Positions 4,323 to 9,855 of a stretch of 12,480 bases of DNA are shown here, in pieces. This DNA comes from a virus. Its lineage: Duplodnaviria; Heunggongvirae; Uroviricota; Caudoviricetes. Under the pieces are notes generated by a model, which was not told the origin of the DNA, ran no database searches, and worked only from the letters and a program-made list of their open reading frames with translations. The first letter of the stretch is position 1. Each line of letters starts with the position of its first letter. The stretch lies in IMG/VR virus record IMGVR_UViG_2548877011_000005, one strand, 5' to 3'. Position numbers and translations under genes: made by a program.

Positions 4323-4676
4323 TTATCGTCGCCGGTTAACGGCGGGTGGTTGCCCACGGTTGAGCCAGAGATAACAGCTGCCCCCGTCATCCGGAGAAAC
4401 ACGATCCACCCAGAACGTCTCACCATTAATGGTCAGCGTGTCACCACGCCGCACAGCACGAACCGTATCCGTCCGCACAAATAATGACGGGCTGCTTCCT
4501 TCAATACGGACCCCGCTACCGGCAAATCCCAGCGACTCCGGATCGTCAAAAACCCCCTGAACTTCTCCGCCACACTGTGCCCCCGAGGTGAACTGTGCAC
4601 AGAGCCCCATCACTTCAACAATCGTACTGTCCAGCCCGGCAAGGGCAGCATCAAAGGCATTCTGAAAATCACGCAT
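4323..4676 (-). CDS. FII: Head-tail joining protein gpFII (117 aa from the ATG at 4676)
   Basis: Track ORF 4323..4712 trimmed to the ATG at 4676-4674, giving MRDFQNAFDAALAG..., which aligns with the lambda FII N-terminus and abuts the FI stop (4669-4671). The C-terminus ...VDRVSPDDGGSCYLWLNRGQPPAVNRRR is lambda FII-like. Confidence 0.85.
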   Translation of the reverse strand: MRDFQNAFDAALAGLDSTIVEVMGLCAQFTSGAQCGGEVQGVFDDPESLGFAGSGVRIEGSSPSLFVRTDTVRAVRRGDTLTINGETFWVDRVSPDDGGSCYLWLNRGQPPAVNRRR

Positions 4677-5043
4677 AAACAGCCATTCCGCCATCAACGT
4701 GTGTTTTTGCATCTGAGGACATAATCAGAATCACCCGACCAACATCCGCAAGCTCAACGGATTCCCCTGTTTCACCATCAATGCCACAGAGATGGAGGCA
4801 GGTCAGAACTCTGATGCGCGTTAACGCACCGGATGTATCCTCACGAACATCATGAGCCGCGGTTTCCCGCTCCCGGATCACCGTATCCCCAACCTGAACA
4901 TCCTCGCCGGATGACTGTATTTCCTCTTCCCATTCCGCCACCCGCTGCGCTATCTCTGCGGCACTCCCGGATATATCCGGCTCACGCCCCAGAATCAGGG
5001 CCAGTTCATCAAGCCGTTTCAGATTTTGCTCTTTCGTTGCCAT
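4669..5043 (-). CDS. FI: Head DNA-packaging/stabilisation protein gpFI-like (124 aa from the ATG at 5043)
   Basis: Track ORF 4669..5091 trimmed to the ATG at 5043-5041 (MATKEQNLKRLDELALILGRE...), preceded by a G-rich Shine-Dalgarno (CAGGGGGCTGAT ATG). The longer reading would run through the hairpin after E. Position and acidic composition fit lambda FI. Confidence 0.72.
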   Translation of the reverse strand: MATKEQNLKRLDELALILGREPDISGSAAEIAQRVAEWEEEIQSSGEDVQVGDTVIRERETAAHDVREDTSGALTRIRVLTCLHLCGIDGETGESVELADVGRVILIMSSDAKTHVDGGMAVYA

Positions 5044-5057
5044 ATCAGCCCCCTGTG

Positions 5058-5086
5058 AAAAAAGACACGGGGGCATTTCGCCCCCG
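5058..5086 (-). terminator. Candidate intrinsic terminator or attenuating stem-loop after E: 7-bp GC stem (CGGGGGC/GCCCCCG), 5-nt loop, then UGUC and U6
   Basis: Minus-strand reading of 5086-5055 is CGGGGGCGAAATGCCCCCGTGTCTTTTTTCAC, lying between the E stop (5095-5097) and the FI start (5043). The U-tract is 4 nt from the stem, so this is not a textbook terminator. Confidence 0.35.
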
Positions 5087-5094
5087 CTCACGGA

Positions 5095-6123
5095 TTATTT
5101 CACCTGTACCACCACAAACTCATCCGGGTCCGGCAACACCATCAGCGGCGCGGACTGCGTCATGGTAAATTCACGGGCGGGATCCCCCACCGTCAGCCAG
5201 TGTTTCGGATAACGGGAAGAGGCCACCACACCTTCGGACAACGCCTGCGCATCCTGAATGGCACCGTAACAACGGATCCCATCTGCAGCAGTATTCCCCA
5301 AAACCAGCATGCCCTCCGGCAGATAACGTTTTTCGATACCGTCTTCTGCTATATAAGACGTTTTCGCCACCACAATGGCCAGATCGCCGTAATACCCCTT
5401 GAAGGACACCACTGCGCCCAGATCTTTCACTGCCGTTTCGAGTTGAGAATTTGAACCGCGACGGGTATCCAGTTTTTCGCGGAACAGCTTAAAACCATTC
5501 AGAAGACGCCAGACGGTACCGTCCATAATGGCAATATTCACAAGACCGCTGGCCTGGTCGCAGTAGAGGTCAAGATCATGTGTAGGATCGAACGTGTCAC
5601 GATCCTGTTTTGACCACTCCTTACCACTACCCTGAGTGATGTTATTCTTCGTCGACCTGCCAAAATCGACCTCAATTTTCTCGAACTGGTCTCCTTCCAT
5701 CGTATATTTGCCATACAACACAGCATTTACCGCCTGTATTTCTTCCACCTGGACAATCGCGTGCTCTTCCTGTTTGAGGTTATCGGTAATGATACGCAGA
5801 CGGCGGTAAGCCGGATCGTTCAGTTGAGCCGGATCTTCACCAGGAAGGCGCTCAACCGCCTGCTGGTAATTAAATTCGTGTTTCGGCTTGACGTAGCCCG
5901 GACGTAACACGCGGGTTTCACCACCACGATGACGCAGCACTTTTCCTTCAACAACCGGGGAGACATAGGCCGCCACCGGCGTTTTTCCGGTAATTTTGTC
6001 CAGCATCACCTCTTCGGTATGGAAATTCACCGTACGGCGGAAAAACAGCTCCAGAAACAGCGCACGAAATTTCACTTTTTGTTCGGTATAACCGAGTAAC
6101 TGGCGGGTCGTAAACAATCCCAT
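5095..6123 (-). CDS. E: Major capsid protein gpE (342 aa)
   Basis: ATG at 6123-6121 with AAAGGAA upstream. Translation MGLFTTRQLLGYTEQKVKFRALFLELFF...REFTMTQSAPLMVLPDPDEFVVVQVK resembles lambda gpE throughout, though clearly diverged. Confidence 0.95.
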   Translation of the reverse strand: MGLFTTRQLLGYTEQKVKFRALFLELFFRRTVNFHTEEVMLDKITGKTPVAAYVSPVVEGKVLRHRGGETRVLRPGYVKPKHEFNYQQAVERLPGEDPAQLNDPAYRRLRIITDNLKQEEHAIVQVEEIQAVNAVLYGKYTMEGDQFEKIEVDFGRSTKNNITQGSGKEWSKQDRDTFDPTHDLDLYCDQASGLVNIAIMDGTVWRLLNGFKLFREKLDTRRGSNSQLETAVKDLGAVVSFKGYYGDLAIVVAKTSYIAEDGIEKRYLPEGMLVLGNTAADGIRCYGAIQDAQALSEGVVASSRYPKHWLTVGDPAREFTMTQSAPLMVLPDPDEFVVVQVK

Positions 6124-6151: not shown

Positions 6152-6173
6152 TCAGGCCACCGCGGTGGCCTGA
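6152..6173. repeat. Perfect 22-bp palindrome TCAGGCCACCGCGGTGGCCTGA in the D-E intergenic region; function unknown
   Basis: Read directly: 6152-6162 tcaggccaccg is the reverse complement of 6163-6173 cggtggcctga. It lies between the D stop (6181-6183) and the E start (6123); no adjacent U-run. Confidence 0.9.
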
Positions 6174-6180
6174 TAACGTG

Positions 6181-6528
6181 TTACGGCAGCGCCGCGTGAC
6201 TCAGGGCACTGCCGGCAAAGGCATTTGCCTTTTTGTGTTCATCCACACTTTCAGGCCAGCGGATTGCCTCCGTCGCAAAGGTCCCCGACTTGTAATAGGT
6301 CAGTACCGTCTCTGTGCCTTCAAGCGGCAGTACCAGTATGCCAACTGCACTACCGGCTTTCTGTCCGTCCCAGACCACCAGTTTCCCGCTGGCTTCATCC
6401 AGCATCAGGGGCGTCAGTGCCGGTGTTGCCGAGGAAATCCCGCTGCTGCCTGTGGCGGTATGAGCCGGATCATTACCGGCAAAAATACGTACTTCCGCAC
6501 GCTGTTCAGTGATGGTTTTCGTTACCAT
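6181..6528 (-). CDS. D: Head decoration protein gpD (115 aa)
   Basis: ATG at 6528-6526 with AGGAGG upstream (plus cctcct 6541-6546). Translation contains DPAHTATGSSG...TPLMLDEASGKLVVWDG...YYKSGTF...KANAFAG, matching lambda gpD motifs. Confidence 0.93.
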   Translation of the reverse strand: MVTKTITEQRAEVRIFAGNDPAHTATGSSGISSATPALTPLMLDEASGKLVVWDGQKAGSAVGILVLPLEGTETVLTYYKSGTFATEAIRWPESVDEHKKANAFAGSALSHAALP

Positions 6529-6564
6529 ATTGTAAAAACCTCCTGTTGATGGTCAGCACTGACT

Positions 6565-7167
6565 TCATGGCATAGCCATGAGCATTTTCACGTCCGCATC
6601 ACCGTCTGCTGACGTCTGTGGCACGCCACCCTGTACCGCTGCCGGTGAATGGTTCGCCATGATGCGTTCAAACAGGGCGGTTGTGGATGCAGAGACCGGT
6701 TCTGCCTTACCTGATCCCGCAGCCAGCACAGCCCGGGCGCTCTCCACAGTCATTCCCGGGCAGGCAGCCAGCTGTTCAGCCTGCGCCTCAGCCCCTTTTG
6801 CCTCATCCAGTGCCATGATCTGATCACGGAGTGAGGGTCCGGCATCCGCCTGCGGTGAAGCAGCCAGGATCGGGCGGGCTTTTTCCACCGTCATCTCCGG
6901 CATCGCCGCCAGCGTTGCCGCCAGTTGTTCACGACCGTTCGCTTCTTCACACGCCATAATGCGATCGGCTTCACTCTGCGTGGATGCCACCGGCTGCTGC
7001 GGTGCCGCCGCGGCCAGAATCGCCCGGGCCTGTTCAACGCTCATGCCCTGTTGTCCTGCCAGCATCGTGGCAAGCTGTTCACGTCCTTTCGCTTCCTGGC
7101 ATGTCAGGATCCCCATCACTCGCTGGTTCTCCTGCGCGGCGGCTTCCGTTGCAGTTAATTGCGGCAT
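6565..7167 (-). CDS. Nu3: Nested in-frame scaffolding protein (Nu3-like, 200 aa) from an internal start inside C
   Basis: In-frame ATG at 7167-7165 (Met302 of C) preceded by a strong Shine-Dalgarno, minus-strand CAGAGGAGGCACT ATG (plus cctcct 7172-7177). Lambda has the same arrangement: Nu3 shares frame and stop with the 3' part of C. Confidence 0.6.
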   Translation of the reverse strand: MPQLTATEAAAQENQRVMGILTCQEAKGREQLATMLAGQQGMSVEQARAILAAAAPQQPVASTQSEADRIMACEEANGREQLAATLAAMPEMTVEKARPILAASPQADAGPSLRDQIMALDEAKGAEAQAEQLAACPGMTVESARAVLAAGSGKAEPVSASTTALFERIMANHSPAAVQGGVPQTSADGDADVKMLMAMP

Positions 7168-8070
7168 AGTGCCTCCTCTGACATTACTGTTCAGCGCCGT
7201 GGCCATCACACTGATGGCATCCGACGCATTGACTAATTCATCCGCCAGCCCGGCATCAATGCCGGACTGACCTTCAAAAACGGCGGCCTCTGTTCCCGTG
7301 ACGGCATCAACAGACAGACCGGTAAACATCGCCACTTTTTCGGCAAACATCCGGCGCGCCGCATCAATGCGCTGCTGCATGTCCTGGCGAACCTCTGCCG
7401 GTAAGGCTTCAAACTGATTGCCATCCACCTTGTGCGCCCCTGAGTAAATCAGCGTGATATCCACACCGGCCTGCGCCAGATGACCGGCATAGCTGACATG
7501 GCTCATCATCACGCCAATGGAGCCGATACGGGATGTCTGGGTAACCAGCCGTCGGGAGCAGGCCGACGCCAGCAGCATGGCTGCAGAACAGGCCGTGTCA
7601 TTGCACAGTGCCCAGACCGGCTTCTGCTGACGGAGGCGGTAAATCATGTCAGCGCAGTCAAACGCGCCGGCGGCCTGCCCGCCCGGACTGTCAATGTCCA
7701 GCAGTACGCCCCGCACCTGGCTATCCGCCATTGCCTGCTGAAGACAGGCGACAATACCGTCATAGCCTGTCATTCCGGAAAATGGCCGCATACCCCCCAG
7801 CCGGTGCACCAGCGTGCCGGTCACCGGCAGTACAGCAATACCGTTCACCACCCTGTAAACACGGGCCGGTCGTTTACCTCCGGCCATGTACTCGTCCGTT
7901 TCAGCCAGCATTCCGGGAGCATCAAACTGTACCTGCTGTTGTGGTACCGAAAGACTTGCTGCCCCCATCTCGCGCCCGAGCGCGCAAAAGAAAACCCGCG
8001 CATAGGCGGGCTCCAGAAGCAGCGGTTCATTGAATGCTGCGGCAATAATGTGTGAAAGATTACGTCTCAC
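6565..8070 (-). CDS. C: Prohead protease / scaffold gpC (S49 ClpP/SppA-like peptidase domain, 501 aa), GTG start
   Basis: Track ORF starting at GTG 8070-8068, overlapping the B stop (8060-8062), with GAGGAG upstream. N-terminus MRRNLSHIIAAAFNEPLLLEPAYARVFFCAL matches lambda gpC; central region ...VWALCNDTACSAAMLLASACSRRLVTQTSRIGSIGVMMSH... is the S49 peptidase core. Confidence 0.92.
   Translation of the reverse strand: MRRNLSHIIAAAFNEPLLLEPAYARVFFCALGREMGAASLSVPQQQVQFDAPGMLAETDEYMAGGKRPARVYRVVNGIAVLPVTGTLVHRLGGMRPFSGMTGYDGIVACLQQAMADSQVRGVLLDIDSPGGQAAGAFDCADMIYRLRQQKPVWALCNDTACSAAMLLASACSRRLVTQTSRIGSIGVMMSHVSYAGHLAQAGVDITLIYSGAHKVDGNQFEALPAEVRQDMQQRIDAARRMFAEKVAMFTGLSVDAVTGTEAAVFEGQSGIDAGLADELVNASDAISVMATALNSNVRGGTMPQLTATEAAAQENQRVMGILTCQEAKGREQLATMLAGQQGMSVEQARAILAAAAPQQPVASTQSEADRIMACEEANGREQLAATLAAMPEMTVEKARPILAASPQADAGPSLRDQIMALDEAKGAEAQAEQLAACPGMTVESARAVLAAGSGKAEPVSASTTALFERIMANHSPAAVQGGVPQTSADGDADVKMLMAMP
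6709..7122 (-). repeat. Three tandem, diverged copies of a ~37-53 aa module (~111-159 bp) in the scaffold region of C/Nu3
   Basis: Protein copies: RVMGILTCQEAKGREQLATMLAGQQGMSVEQARAILAAAAPQ (from aa317), RIMACEEANGREQLAATLAAMPEMTVEKARPILAASPQ (aa370), IMALDEAKGAEAQAEQLAACPGMTVESARAVLAAGSG (aa418). DNA copies are visibly related at about 6730-6830, 6840-6965 and 7000-7120. Confidence 0.75.
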
Positions 8071-9652
8071 GGGGTGTTGTCTCCTCTTCCGGCCTGCGAC
8101 TCTCCGCTATCTGCTGCTGATACGCCTGCGCTATCCACACCGGACGTGAGAGTCCGGCTTTTTGCCGCTCTGCAGATTCCCTGACCTGCTGGCGGAAAAT
8201 GTCCTGATAATCCTCGCCCATCAGCGCCAGCTCTTTCTCATACGTGCTCAGTCCGGCCTCAATGCGCATCACCGATTCCTGAACCTCCTTGAGCCCGTCA
8301 ATGGCCATTCTTCCGGCACCAATCCACTCTGCCCGTGACCAGGCTGATCGCGCCTGATAAAAATCAAAACGCGCCCGTGGCGGACGGATAATCCCCCGAA
8401 GAAGTGCCTCTTCCAGCCAGCAGGAAAACATCTGCGTGGCCAGCCGGGCCGCAATAAATTTTCGCCGCCCCATAAAATAGCGCCACGACTCATTGGCAGA
8501 GGCCCTGGCACTTGAATAACTGACCTTCGAGTAATCACGGGACAACTGTTCGTAGGAAACGCCAAGACCGGCGGCGATATACCGCAGCAGCGCCTGTTCA
8601 AGCGCCGAAAATCCATTGTCTGAATCCTGCGCAGTCTGTAGTTTCAGATCATCCCCGGGGAAAAGGTGCGGAATTTTGACACCGCCCAGCGTCACGCTAT
8701 TCGTGTCATACCAGGTGGAGAACTTATCCAGAATATTAATAAGCGGATTATCCTTCTGCCCCTGCGGCGCACCGGCGATATATTCAAAGGCCTTTTCGGT
8801 ATCAAGTTCACTTTCAATCGTCGCTGCATACATCGCCTTCACTATGGCCGACTGAAGCTGTGTTGCCTGCAGGGAATCGAGCATCTTCAGCCGTTCCATG
8901 ACGCTGTAAAACTGATTAGCCCCACGGGTCTGCCCGTCCTCCACCGGCTCGAAAATATGCAGCATGGCCGGACGCCCGGTGGGAAGTTCACGCGGGATCC
9001 GTTCCCATCGTCCACTCCCGGAGCGAGGAAAATCATCCTCACAGATATGGTACGCAACGGCACGGCCATATCGATCGACCTCCACCCCGGCCCGCAGAAA
9101 ACGGTTCCCCATACCGTGTCCTGGCGTGTCCACCCGTTTCGGACTCACGGCTTTAAAACGCGTACGGAATAACTGCGTGGTTTCCGTATCCCAGACCGGC
9201 TGCACAAAGATTTCGCCGTTAAACGCATGAACGCCCACACCTTCACGGATAAATTCCGTGAACGTGCGTTTTCCTTCCACGTCGATCTCGCCAGACATCC
9301 CTTCTGCGTATTCTGACCAGGCCGCCTCCACCTCATCGACAAAACTTTTTGCCGCGGTCTCCCGCATCCCCAGCCAGCGCCAGTTCGGACGGTAGCTAAT
9401 CAGAAACATATGCCCGACAATGTGATCCTTATGCAGGGCCACCGCATTGGCCGCTATTCCGTTATTGCGCACCAGATCATCTGCACGGGCATTCCCCAGA
9501 CGCAACGCGGGCAGCAGGGCCGCATCGGCACTCTGCGCCGGTGGCAACCACTCTGCCATTTGCCCGCCAAATCCTGCACCGCCACCGTTGTAGCTGAGGC
9601 TCTCCCGAAGCGGAACGCCGTTCACATCAATCAGGACAGGCGTTCGTTTCAT
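8060..9652 (-). CDS. B: Portal protein gpB (530 aa)
   Basis: ATG at 9652-9650 overlaps the W stop (9651-9649) as ATGA. Size and position (between W and C) match lambda gpB; translation MKRTPVLIDVNGVPLRESLSYNGGGAGFGGQMAEW... is portal-like. Confidence 0.95.
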   Translation of the reverse strand: MKRTPVLIDVNGVPLRESLSYNGGGAGFGGQMAEWLPPAQSADAALLPALRLGNARADDLVRNNGIAANAVALHKDHIVGHMFLISYRPNWRWLGMRETAAKSFVDEVEAAWSEYAEGMSGEIDVEGKRTFTEFIREGVGVHAFNGEIFVQPVWDTETTQLFRTRFKAVSPKRVDTPGHGMGNRFLRAGVEVDRYGRAVAYHICEDDFPRSGSGRWERIPRELPTGRPAMLHIFEPVEDGQTRGANQFYSVMERLKMLDSLQATQLQSAIVKAMYAATIESELDTEKAFEYIAGAPQGQKDNPLINILDKFSTWYDTNSVTLGGVKIPHLFPGDDLKLQTAQDSDNGFSALEQALLRYIAAGLGVSYEQLSRDYSKVSYSSARASANESWRYFMGRRKFIAARLATQMFSCWLEEALLRGIIRPPRARFDFYQARSAWSRAEWIGAGRMAIDGLKEVQESVMRIEAGLSTYEKELALMGEDYQDIFRQQVRESAERQKAGLSRPVWIAQAYQQQIAESRRPEEETTPRET

Positions 9653-9855
9653 AACCTCACTCCCAGCGGACGACGGCGACGGCGGGTTGTCCCCAGTACC
9701 GACTCCGCATCATTGATCGCCCGGTTAAGCTCATCCAGAGAAGCTGCCGTATATTCAATTCTGCGACCATCTTTCTGGACAGACACCACCCGTTTACCGG
9801 TTAATAAATCAAGGCGCGCCTGACGCAGCGCCTGCAGTTCAGCGACTGTAACCAT
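9649..9855 (-). CDS. W: Head-tail joining / DNA stabilisation protein gpW (68 aa)
   Basis: ATG at 9855-9853 with GGAGGAG upstream; overlaps the A 3' end by 17 nt. Translation [40 protein letters not shown]... resembles lambda gpW (TGKRVATVQKDGRRVEF). Confidence 0.9.
   Translation of the reverse strand: MVTVAELQALRQARLDLLTGKRVVSVQKDGRRIEYTAASLDELNRAINDAESVLGTTRRRRRPLGVRL

What the first reader, a model, noticed from the sequence alone, without database searches (positions are those of the whole stretch)
5044..5094. Hairpin and U-tract after the capsid gene, overlapping the FI ribosome binding site
After the E stop the transcript can form CGGGGGC-GAAAU-GCCCCCG followed by UGUCUUUUUU, a terminator-like structure. 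The same C-run can instead pair with the downstream CACAGGGGG, which contains the FI Shine-Dalgarno. The two hairpins are mutually exclusive, suggesting partial termination or translational attenuation that would lower FI expression relative to the abundant capsid protein.
Basis: partly seen in the sequence, partly recalled or inferred. Interest (0 to 1): 0.45.

Follow-up and report, generated by a model that had tools for sequence, protein, structure and literature searches.

The report
Terminator-like hairpin after phage capsid gene
A strong RNA hairpin followed by a run of U sits right after the major capsid gene of a phage-21-like prophage; it is a real, conserved example of a known but functionally untested feature of phage late operons, and the proposed two-hairpin switch is probably incidental.

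Summary
On the minus (sense) strand, the 51-nt spacer between capsid gene E (stop 5097-5095) and FI (ATG 5043) holds GCGGGGGC-GAAAU-GCCCCCGU (5087-5067), then GUCUUUUUU, then the FI Shine-Dalgarno AGGGGG (5054-5049). It is the most stable local hairpin in the 12.5-kb window. The second most stable sits in the D-E spacer.

The hairpin looks selected. All 13 distinct natural variants keep it fully paired, one through a compensatory GC-to-AU change. Every E-family phage lineage I examined with a spacer of at least 34 nt has its own, unrelated hairpin there.

The switch is weakly supported.
- The competing C-run/Shine-Dalgarno hairpin exists, but it occupies only about 0.1-0.3% of the equilibrium ensemble.
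- It lies 3' of the U tract, so it cannot influence termination.
- Common natural variants break it without compensation.
- It is absent in other lineages.

Lambdoid late operons are transcribed by Q-modified, hairpin-resistant polymerase, and the consensus scan found no promoter-like site downstream. Efficient termination is therefore unlikely.

The likeliest role is an RNA 3' decay barrier that also stops unmodified polymerase. This is a known kind of element whose role is unproven. Interest is low to moderate.

The parts
5095..6123 (-). Major capsid protein gene (lambda E / phage 21 gene 7); stop codon TAA at 5097-5095
   Evidence: ORF. Pfam PF03864 Phage_cap_E, E = 1.4e-63. The DNA is 97.5% identical to the phage 21 record M81255 over the 1-kb query, which there is annotated as gene 7, major capsid protein.
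5088..5094 (-). Post-stop segment UCCGUGA. It can pair with UCAC-A-GGG (5058-5051) to form an outer helix around hairpin 1, partly covering the FI Shine-Dalgarno.
   Evidence: Minimum-energy folds of the 54-, 72- and 99-nt contexts. The helix is paired in 86.8% of cells across 13 variants, with no compensatory change.
5067..5087 (-). Hairpin 1: GCGGGGGC (5087-5080), loop GAAAU (5079-5075), GCCCCCGU (5074-5067). It has 8 pairs, 7 of them G-C.
   Evidence: Folding gives -17.7 kcal/mol for the 37-nt segment and -16.8 for the 21-nt hairpin alone. Most stable 23-nt window on the sense strand, -17.5. Listed first among terminator-like sites. 100% paired in 13 distinct natural variants, with one GC-to-AU double change and two wobble changes.
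5058..5066 (-). U-rich tract GUCUUUUUU. The six consecutive U begin 4 nt after the last pair of the stem.
   Evidence: Sequence. It meets the scan's U-tract criterion. It is almost invariant in the roughly 200 related contigs screened; the variants are GUUUUUUU, GUCUUUAUU and UUUUCAUUC.
5049..5054 (-). FI Shine-Dalgarno AGGGGG, 5 nt upstream of the ATG
   Evidence: Sequence. M81255 annotates AGGGG as the ribosome binding site. It varies freely among relatives: GGGGGC, GGAGGC, GGGGGA, GGGAGC, AGAGGCC, GGAGAC.
5048..5074 (-). Alternative hairpin GCCCCCGUG-UCUUUUUU-CAC-A-GGGGGC. It uses the 3' arm of hairpin 1 and the FI Shine-Dalgarno.
   Evidence: -16.8 kcal/mol when the 5' arm is left out. Occupancy at equilibrium is 0.08-0.26%. 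87.2% of cells are paired across variants; four pairs are broken in 1-4 variants, and two double changes both come from one variant.
4669..5043 (-). FI-like DNA packaging protein gene (phage 21 'ORF1'); ATG at 5043-5041
   Evidence: ORF in frame with the 4669..5091 entry. Pfam PF14000 Packaging_FI, E = 1e-16. RefSeq E. coli genomes name it gpFI.
6152..6173 (-). Second hairpin, in the D(shp)-E spacer: UCAGGCCAC-CGCG-GUGGCCUGA, followed by CUGAUUUCUG
   Evidence: Second most stable local hairpin of the window, -17.3. Listed second among terminator-like sites. Sequence. Lambda, Gifsy-1, 705R4 and Vibrio K242 have hairpins in the same spacer.
6181..6528 (-). Head decoration protein gene (lambda D / phage 21 shp)
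   Evidence: Pfam PF02924 HDPD, E = 2.1e-24. M81255 annotation.

Best explanation
This is the intercistronic, terminator-type stem-loop that marks the 3' end of the capsid cistron in a lambdoid late operon.

Shown: the hairpin is the strongest local structure in the region. It is maintained by selection, and functionally equivalent but unrelated hairpins occupy the same place behind E-type capsid genes in many phage lineages.

Inferred: during lytic growth the operon is transcribed by Q-modified RNA polymerase, which ignores hairpin terminators. Little or no termination therefore occurs here, and FI, FII and the tail genes are made by read-through. The hairpin then forms on the finished mRNA and acts as a barrier to 3'-to-5' exonucleases after downstream cleavage or occasional termination. 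Under this model the D/E part of the message outlasts the distal part. Polymerases that are not Q-modified, such as stray transcription in the prophage, would terminate at it.

The complementarity between the C-run and the FI Shine-Dalgarno is mainly a by-product of a G/C-run stem lying next to a G-rich ribosome binding site. At most it gives modest, non-conserved damping of FI initiation.
For: - Strength and position: it is the most stable local hairpin and is listed first among terminator-like sites in 12.5 kb. The runner-up is in the D-E spacer, so the two strongest hairpins bracket E.
- Selection within the family: 13 distinct variants, drawn from several hundred viral-contig loci (not deduplicated across calls), keep all 8 pairs. 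There is one compensatory GC-to-AU change and two G-U-preserving changes, while the neighbouring Shine-Dalgarno zone varies freely.
- Positional conservation without sequence conservation: lambda (AUGGCCC-UUCG-GGGCCAU), Phi06_2987, Gifsy-1, a Gifsy-related type (GGCCC-GUAA-GGGCC + U6), 705R4, Trabulsiella, Enc34, SD-13_S19, Vibrio K242, Xanthomonas AhaSv and Achromobacter AchV4 each have their own stem of 5-11 consecutive pairs just after the capsid stop. E identity to the window runs from 85% down to 29%. The only lineages without one (KLER1-1, BZS1, PVP-XSN) have no spacer.
- Rank in other loci: the post-E hairpin is among the three most stable 27-nt windows of the 2.1-2.4-kb locus in 5 of the 8 lineages scanned that have a spacer of at least 34 nt, although the spacer is only 2-4% of the locus.
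- Read-through is required: the consensus scan finds no promoter-like site on the sense strand downstream of the hairpin, and the downstream head-completion and tail genes are tightly packed.
- Literature: Q21 and Q-lambda narrow the RNA exit channel and prevent terminator hairpins from forming (PMC12360218). Terminator hairpins are associated with higher abundance of the upstream transcript (PMC11696848). A putative terminator after the procapsid module inside the late operon is noted for phage L, with partial termination or blocking of non-antiterminated transcription offered as roles (PMC8022706).
Against: - No experimental 3'-end, half-life or expression data for this element or for lambda's counterpart could be obtained. 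Liu et al. 2013 and Sampson et al. 1988 are not in the held library. From memory only, Sampson et al. attributed most differences in late-gene expression to translation initiation, which would leave the hairpin a minor role.
- The Q gene and its loading site are outside the window, so antitermination is inferred from family membership.
- U tracts are kept in the enteric temperate lambdoids. That fits a real termination function better than a pure stability function.
- The stability role is an analogy, not a measurement.
Confidence: 0.5

Rival explanations
1. Leaky intrinsic terminator that is active during lytic growth. A fixed fraction of late-operon polymerases stop after E, lowering mRNA for FI and everything downstream, as T7's T-phi does after gene 10.
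For: The element has canonical terminator anatomy and is co-oriented with the operon. U-rich tails are retained behind the hairpins of the enteric lambdoids: window, L084 type, lambda, Gifsy-1, the Gifsy-related type and 705R4. T7 places its single terminator directly after the capsid gene, and reads drop downstream of it (PMC6938266). Partial termination is one of the two roles suggested for the phage L late-operon terminator (PMC8022706).
Against: Q-modified polymerase is built to prevent hairpin-dependent termination (PMC12360218). The U tract is interrupted next to the stem (G, U, C before the six U). A rough d'Aubenton-Carafa-style score, using a formula recalled from memory, is near the threshold at -5 to +6. 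More distant lineages keep the hairpin but not the U tract: Trabulsiella, Enc34 and AhaSv have none, and SD-13_S19 and K242 have only weak ones. A second such element before E would compound the losses for E itself.
Confidence: 0.2
2. Ribosome-actuated translational switch. A ribosome terminating at the E stop melts the base of hairpin 1, the freed C-run captures the FI Shine-Dalgarno, and FI initiation falls as E translation rises.
For: The alternative hairpin is real and strong: -16.8 kcal/mol, with 0 of 200 shuffles as good. With a footprint reaching +15 from the P site the predicted minimum-energy fold flips to it. Shine-Dalgarno accessibility then falls from 0.46 (free mRNA) to 0.34, and to 0.14 at +18. 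One divergent variant (the L084 type) changes the 5' arm, the 3' arm and the Shine-Dalgarno coherently, so both helices survive.
Against: With the footprint at +11 (the position of the ribosomal helicase site, from memory) hairpin 1 stays intact and accessibility is unchanged. Equilibrium occupancy is 0.08-0.26%. Abundant natural variants carry uncompensated mismatches, including GGAGGC, GGGAGC, AGAGGCC and GGAGAC. Occupancy in the GGAGGC variant is 3e-8. No comparable effect appears in 10 other lineages. Any C-rich arm resembles the anti-Shine-Dalgarno sequence, so some complementarity is expected.
Confidence: 0.1
3. Translational decoupler. The stable stem just past the stop codon blocks post-termination ribosomes from sliding on and re-initiating at FI. 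It also locks upstream sequence away from the FI initiation region, so FI output is set by its own site and not by the very high ribosome flux on E.
For: Across lineages there are only two states. Either there is a spacer of at least 34 nt holding a hairpin, or the next gene abuts or overlaps the capsid stop (10 nt, 1 nt, overlap). No long spacer lacks a hairpin. In the enteric lambdoids the stem starts 0-9 nt after the stop.
Against: The evidence is purely correlative, and the same pattern fits the decay-barrier model. The lineage sample is small (14 types). The outer helix predicted here would give positive coupling, because the stop-codon ribosome would open part of the Shine-Dalgarno.
Confidence: 0.1
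4. No function. The palindrome is a chance feature or a leftover of recombination at a mosaic boundary between head-gene modules.
For: The E-FI junction is a mosaic boundary. Some relatives match E and FI in two separate BLAST pieces that together cover only about 77% of the query. The same hairpin is found with different FI alleles. Hairpins of about -17 kcal/mol occur somewhere in 3 of 20 shuffled 12.5-kb sequences.
Against: Pairing is perfect in all 13 variants, including one compensatory change. Independent hairpins sit at the same site in about 11 lineages with unrelated sequences. The two strongest hairpins of the window both fall in the roughly 110 nt of spacers flanking E.
Confidence: 0.05

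Closest known systems
Intra-operon putative terminator after the procapsid (coat protein) module in the late operon of P22-like phage L (PMC8022706)
   Same: It is a lambdoid phage with a single late promoter and Q-type antitermination. A terminator-like hairpin sits right after the capsid-building genes and inside the operon. [quoted passage not shown] They suggest partial termination or stopping spurious, non-antiterminated transcription.
   Different: The capsid gene family is unrelated (P22 coat versus lambda E type) and so is the sequence. In phage L it was predicted in silico only. No competing pairing with a Shine-Dalgarno was described.
Hairpin in the E-FI spacer of phage lambda (NC_001416 about 7163-7182): AUGGCCC-UUCG-GGGCCAU followed by UGUUUCUCUG
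   Same: The genes on both sides are homologous, the position is the same (2 nt after the E stop), the stem has 7 pairs and the tail is U/C-rich. Its stem is invariant apart from one wobble-preserving A-to-G change across the distinct spacer variants seen in 80 lambda-type contigs.
   Different: The sequence is unrelated. The loop is a C(UUCG)G tetraloop. The 3' arm is not complementary to the FI Shine-Dalgarno, and freeing it does not change accessibility (0.44 versus 0.45). I could not find a paper describing or testing it in the held library.
T7 terminator T-phi, immediately after major capsid gene 10 (PMC6938266)
   Same: A terminator hairpin lies directly behind the most highly expressed structural gene in a long co-directional gene array. 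Read-through is needed for the downstream structural genes, and read counts drop downstream of it.
   Different: It acts on T7 RNA polymerase, there is no antitermination system, and its effect has been measured. Here the polymerase is the host enzyme, presumably Q-modified, and nothing has been measured.
Intercistronic mRNA-stabilising hairpins, such as REP elements in malE-malF and the puf operon hairpins (from memory); terminator hairpins associated with higher upstream transcript abundance (PMC11696848)
   Same: A stable stem-loop lies 3' of the more abundantly needed cistron of a polycistronic mRNA. The proposed action is as a barrier to 3' exonucleases.
   Different: Those cases rest on half-life measurements. 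Here the role is inferred from position and conservation only.
Classical transcription attenuators (trp-type terminator / antiterminator alternatives)
   Same: Three successive segments (G-run, C-run, G-run) form two mutually exclusive helices, one of which is a terminator hairpin. Ribosome position could in principle choose between them.
   Different: In attenuators the competitor lies 5' of the terminator and is made first. Here it lies 3' of the U tract, so it cannot affect termination. There is no leader peptide, and the alternative is 4.4 kcal/mol worse in ensemble free energy.

Membership tests
Rho-independent (intrinsic) terminator | G+C-rich stem of about 5-14 pairs with a 3-8 nt loop | tested here: met
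   8 pairs, 7 of them G-C, with a 5-nt loop. Folding gives -17.7 kcal/mol for the 37-nt segment and -16.8 for the 21-nt hairpin alone.
Rho-independent (intrinsic) terminator | U tract immediately 3' of the stem | tested here: inconclusive
   It meets the scan's rule of at least 5 T in 8. However, the six consecutive U start 4 nt after the stem, following G, U and C. A rough score from a formula recalled from memory lies near the threshold, at -5 to +6.
Rho-independent (intrinsic) terminator | Co-oriented with transcription, and not a terminator on the opposite strand | tested here: met
   The hit is on the minus strand, which is the sense strand of all the head genes. There is no plus-strand hit at this site.
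Rho-independent (intrinsic) terminator | Transcripts actually end there | not testable with these tools
   No RNA 3'-end data are available. This needs Term-seq or in vitro transcription.
Terminator/antiterminator attenuator or riboswitch-type switch | An alternative helix that excludes the terminator helix | tested here: met
   The C-run at 5074-5069 pairs either with 5086-5081 or with 5053-5048.
Terminator/antiterminator attenuator or riboswitch-type switch | The competitor is synthesised before the termination decision (it lies 5' of the terminator's 3' arm) | tested here: not met
   The competing G-run (5053-5048) lies 3' of the U tract (5066-5058), so it is made after the decision point.
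Terminator/antiterminator attenuator or riboswitch-type switch | Both conformers are populated or kinetically reachable, and the alternative pairing is conserved | tested here: not met
   The alternative holds 0.08-0.26% of the ensemble. 87% of cells are paired, with uncompensated breaks in common variants. No equivalent exists in 10 other lineages. It is reachable only if a ribosome footprint extends to +15 or beyond.
Intercistronic mRNA-stabilising hairpin | A stable stem-loop in the spacer 3' of the more highly expressed cistron, conserved in position | tested here: met
   It lies after the capsid gene. Unrelated hairpins occupy the same place in about 11 lineages.
Intercistronic mRNA-stabilising hairpin | The upstream mRNA segment is longer-lived or more abundant than the downstream segment, and this depends on the stem | not testable with these tools
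   This requires half-life or RNA-seq measurements on stem mutants.
Lambdoid late operon under Q antitermination | Lambda-type head gene order (Nu1, A, W, B, C, D, E, FI, FII, then tail genes) on one strand | tested here: met
   The ORF map, Pfam assignments for D, E, FI and FII, and 97.5% DNA identity to the phage 21 head operon over the 1-kb query.
Lambdoid late operon under Q antitermination | A Q gene and a Q-loading site at the late promoter of the same element | not tested
   These lie outside the 12.5-kb window. They are inferred from relatedness to phage 21 and other lambdoid phages.

The most novel reading that the evidence does not exclude
The three runs (G-run 5' arm, C-run 3' arm, G-run Shine-Dalgarno), placed 7 nt past the E stop, form a ribosome-operated device. 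Each ribosome terminating on the very heavily translated capsid message would pry open the base of hairpin 1 and hand the C-run to the FI Shine-Dalgarno. FI synthesis would then be throttled in proportion to E translation, a form of negative translational coupling. Together with the D-E hairpin, this would make the capsid cistron a self-contained, hairpin-bracketed expression cassette inside the late mRNA.
Probability: 0.1. Interest if true: 0.5.

Novelty: new member of a known kind. Interest (0 to 1): 0.27.

Why it matters
Lambdoid late operons make proteins in very different amounts from one long transcript. Terminator-like hairpins inside these antiterminated operons have been noticed, but their roles are stated to be unknown (PMC8022706).

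This analysis adds three points:
- The hairpin behind the E-type capsid gene is under selection.
- It recurs with unrelated sequences across distant phage lineages.
- In this phage the two strongest hairpins of the head-tail region bracket the capsid gene.

That makes the question easy to test by stem disruption and compensatory restoration in a prophage matched by 1560 of 5426 complete E. coli genomes, including Nissle 1917. It also has practical value for anyone engineering lambda-type capsid expression or display systems. It does not reveal a new mechanism.

Tried and rejected
- Rfam (gathering thresholds, whole window): no family matched.
- Literature: Liu et al. 2013 (lambda ribosome profiling) and Sampson et al. 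1988 (lambda late-gene translation) are not held. Several searches for papers on a hairpin or terminator after E in lambda or phage 21 returned nothing specific. The mycobacteriophage RNA-seq paper and the phage epsilon34 paper had nothing on capsid-gene terminators.
- The search for related loci in genome contigs gave only 4 loci. The first viral-contig scan returned only capsid genes at least 98% identical, so diversity had to come from a DNA-pattern scan and from other capsid queries.
- My first regular expression for extracting the spacer failed.
- The 'Tri box' repeats annotated in M81255 were not recovered as direct DNA repeats in 6500-8100.
- The first MAFFT alignment (A1) shifted one variant by a column, so I rebuilt it from equal-length variants only (A2).
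- The d'Aubenton-Carafa-type score uses a formula recalled from memory with modern energies. It is only a rough guide.
- Bidirectional terminator: rejected, because the plus strand has no adequate U tract after the stem.
- RNase III site: rejected, because the stem is too short at 8 pairs.
- In one variant (L344 type) the alternative fold appeared as the minimum-energy structure in a 50-nt context. That vanished in a longer context, where hairpin 1 holds 99.9%.
Full report
**Context.** The window is the head and proximal tail part of a phage-21-like lambdoid late operon, with all genes on the minus strand. The ORF map shows the order Nu1, A, W, B, C, D/shp (6528-6181), E (6123-5095), FI-like (5043-4669), FII (4712-4323), then tail genes. 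Pfam confirms D (HDPD), E (Phage_cap_E), FI (Packaging_FI) and FII (Phage_attach). A 1-kb query around the finding (4600-5600) is 97.5% identical to the published phage 21 head operon M81255. A 201-nt query across it matches 1560 of 5426 complete E. coli genomes. It is 100% identical in strains such as Nissle 1917 and ATCC 11775.

**The observation.** It is correct to the base. After the E stop codon (TAA, 5097-5095) come:
- UCCGUGA;
- the stem-loop GCGGGGGC-GAAAU-GCCCCCGU (5087-5067);
- GUCUUUUUU (5066-5058);
- CAC;
- AGGGGG (5054-5049), which M81255 annotates as the ribosome binding site of the next ORF;
- CUGAU and the FI AUG (5043).

The hairpin segment folds at -17.7 kcal/mol (z = -2.84 against dinucleotide shuffles). 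The alternative hairpin, built from the C-run and the Shine-Dalgarno G-run, folds at -16.8 kcal/mol when the 5' arm is left out (z = -3.48; 0 of 200 shuffles as good). The consensus scan lists the site first among terminator-like sites in the window. In my own scan of every 23-nt window on the sense strand it is the most stable hairpin of the 12.5 kb (-17.5). The second (-17.3, 6173-6152) lies in the D-E spacer. Hairpins with dG <= -12 and a U-rich tail number 4, against a mean of 0.3 in 20 shuffles. Rfam has no family for it.

**The two conformers.**
- In an 84-nt context, the ensemble with hairpin 1 enforced has a free energy of -28.4 kcal/mol, against -24.0 for the alternative. That corresponds to 99.8% versus 0.08% occupancy.
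- In an 81-nt context the figures are 99.6% and 0.26%.
- Hairpin 1 is also transcribed first.
- The competing G-run lies 3' of the U tract. It does not yet exist when polymerase reaches the termination point, so the alternative hairpin cannot modulate termination. This is the opposite arrangement from a classical attenuator, and it follows directly from the order of the segments.
- The alternative could matter only after transcription, for FI translation, and only if something removes the 5' arm. Modelling a ribosome stopped at the E stop codon gives a knife-edge result. With the footprint ending at +11 from the P site, hairpin 1 stays and Shine-Dalgarno accessibility is unchanged (0.46 versus 0.47). 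At +15 the minimum-energy fold flips to the alternative (0.34), and at +18 accessibility falls to 0.14.
- Most folds also predict an outer helix between the post-stop UCCGUGA and UCAC-A-GGG, which partly covers the Shine-Dalgarno even when hairpin 1 is formed.

**Variation within the phage-21-type family.** I extracted the spacer from roughly 200 viral-contig loci (including the phage 21 record and four genome loci) that carry the conserved start of the spacer. Further contigs came from a Gifsy-1 capsid query.
- The hairpin arms are almost invariant. Where they change, pairing is kept: GGGAGC/GCUCCC (a double change, 6 loci), GCCUCC or GCUCCC opposite GGGGGC (G-U wobble), and UGGGGGC (U-G).
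- On an alignment of 13 distinct equal-length variants, hairpin 1 is paired in 100% of cells. Five pairs are invariant, two vary on one side and one varies on both sides.
- The Shine-Dalgarno zone varies freely among purine-rich forms, without matching changes in the C-run. The counts are: GGGGGC 87, plus smaller classes with the same spacer; GGAGGC 34; GGGGGA 30; GGGAGC 7; AGAGGCC 4; GGAGAC 1. One search adds 21 more contigs with GGAGGC, which may overlap.
- The alternative helix is paired in 87% of cells, with four pairs broken in one to four variants. Its two double changes both come from the single L084-type variant. In the common GGAGGC variant the alternative conformer drops to 3e-8 of the ensemble.
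- Selection therefore clearly maintains hairpin 1 and does not clearly maintain the competitor. A C-rich arm resembles the anti-Shine-Dalgarno sequence, so some complementarity to any G-rich ribosome binding site is expected.

**Other lineages.** Every E-family phage I examined with a real spacer behind the capsid gene has its own hairpin there, unrelated in sequence.

| Lineage | E identity to window | Hairpin after the capsid stop |
|---|---|---|
| Lambda | 61% | AUGGCCC-UUCG-GGGCCAU + UGUUUCUCUG |
| Phi06_2987 | 58% | GUGGCCC-UGUC-GGGCCAC |
| Gifsy-1 | 85% | AAAGGCCUG-AUU-CAGGCCUUU |
| Gifsy-related type | not measured (90-92% to Gifsy-1 E) | GGCCC-GUAA-GGGCC + UUUUUU |
| 705R4 | 54% | GAGUC-GAAA-GGCUC + UUUUUU |
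| Trabulsiella prophage | 79% | 11-pair stem, no U tract |
| Enc34, SD-13_S19, Vibrio K242, Xanthomonas AhaSv, Achromobacter AchV4 | 29-32% | own stems of 8-10 consecutive pairs |

The three lineages without a hairpin (KLER1-1, BZS1, PVP-XSN) have spacers of 10 nt, 1 nt or an overlap. No lineage has a long spacer without a hairpin. The post-E hairpin is among the three most stable 27-nt windows of the 2.1-2.4-kb locus in 5 of the 8 lineages scanned with a spacer of at least 34 nt, although the spacer is only 2-4% of each locus.

U-rich tails follow the hairpins of the enteric temperate lambdoids but are mostly missing in the distant lineages. Several loops are the extra-stable tetraloop types UUCG and GNRA; that classification is from general knowledge. 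In these 10 other lineages, freeing the 3' arm does not systematically close the downstream Shine-Dalgarno: accessibility falls in 3 (only Gifsy-1 by more than 0.02) and rises in 7. The switch is therefore peculiar to the phage-21-type sequence. A hairpin also sits in the D-E spacer of lambda, Gifsy-1, 705R4, K242 and this window, and in most of them it has a U tract.

**Mechanism.**
- Shown: a selected, position-conserved stem-loop with terminator anatomy lies immediately 3' of the capsid cistron.
- Inferred from established knowledge: lambdoid late operons are transcribed from one promoter by Q-modified polymerase. Q21 and Q-lambda form a torus that narrows the RNA exit channel and prevents terminator hairpins from forming (PMC12360218).
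- The consensus scan finds no promoter-like site on the sense strand downstream of the hairpin (this scan is insensitive). FI, FII and the tail genes therefore depend on read-through.
- Efficient termination here during lytic growth is consequently unlikely. A second such element in front of E makes it less likely still.
- The hairpin can form once the RNA has left the polymerase. Its most probable roles are a barrier to 3' exonucleases, which lets the capsid part of the message outlast the distal part, and a stop for polymerases that are not Q-modified. Terminator hairpins are associated with higher abundance of the upstream transcript (PMC11696848).
- Rivals are leaky termination as at T7 T-phi (PMC6938266), the ribosome-operated Shine-Dalgarno switch, and translational decoupling of FI from the heavy ribosome traffic on E. 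None can be separated without RNA measurements.

**What is known.** The closest explicit statement I found is for the P22-like phage L. It has a putative terminator at the end of the procapsid module, inside the single-promoter late operon. [quoted passage not shown] T7 places its only terminator directly after capsid gene 10 (PMC6938266). I could not obtain lambda ribosome-profiling or late-gene translation papers. From memory only, the latter attributes most late-gene differences to translation initiation.

**Verdict.**
- It belongs to a known kind, and this particular member is functionally uncharacterised.
The structures are real and exclusive, but the competitor cannot affect termination, is thermodynamically negligible unless a ribosome intervenes, and is not conserved.
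- Interest is low to moderate. The useful outcome is the comparative result that E-type capsid genes are followed, and often preceded, by selected hairpins. That turns an acknowledged open question into a simple mutational experiment.

Noticed in passing
window 6152-6173 (minus strand), D(shp)-E spacer: A second terminator-like hairpin, UCAGGCCAC-CGCG-GUGGCCUGA followed by CUGAUUUCUG. It is the second most stable local hairpin of the window (-17.3), so the two strongest hairpins bracket the capsid gene. Lambda, Gifsy-1, 705R4 and Vibrio K242 also have a hairpin in the D-E spacer, mostly with a clear U tract.
   Followed up: partly
window 5041-5097 (minus strand): The E stop codon and the FI ATG are in the same reading frame, and the 51-nt spacer has no in-frame stop; the ORF listing reports a 4669..5091 GTG ORF. 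An in-frame AUG (5076-5074) spans the last two loop bases and the first base of the 3' arm, 4 nt after the G-run of the 5' arm. GGGGGCGAAAUG therefore mimics the real FI start GGGGGCUGAUAUG. If it were used when the hairpin is open, it would add 11 residues (MPPCLFSQGAD) to FI. In lambda, E and FI are not in the same frame.
   Followed up: no
window 4980-5180; E. coli complete genomes: A 201-nt query across the E-FI junction matches 1560 of 5426 complete E. coli genomes, with up to 5 copies per genome. It is 100% identical in Nissle 1917, ATCC 11775 and O145 RM9872, so public RNA-seq from these strains could test the element.
   Followed up: no
L344-L351 type contigs (viral contigs; capsid about 88% identical to Gifsy-1 E): A natural variant changes the post-stop segment from UCCGUGAG to UCCGGGAG. 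In a short 50-nt context the predicted minimum-energy fold becomes a small 5' hairpin plus the alternative Shine-Dalgarno hairpin. In a longer context hairpin 1 again holds 99.9%.
   Followed up: yes
window 4600-5600 versus phage records H13-H18; viral contigs: The E-FI junction is a mosaic boundary. The same hairpin and spacer occur with at least two FI alleles (N-termini MATKEQN... and MATKEEN...). Some relatives match E and FI in two separate BLAST pieces covering only about 77% of the query.
   Followed up: partly
window 7246-7268 and 9812-9834 (minus strand): These are further stable local hairpins inside coding sequence. AGUCCGGCA-UUGA-UGCCGGGCU (-15.3) lies within gene C. A hairpin with a U-rich tail (-13.1) lies at the A/W junction. 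Their significance is unknown.
   Followed up: no
window 6500-8100; L001 1-395 (M81255): The phage 21 record annotates three 'Tri box' repeats (function unknown) in the scaffold region of gene 5/6. A direct-repeat search at the DNA level found none in the corresponding part of the window, so any similarity is weak or at the protein level.
   Followed up: partly
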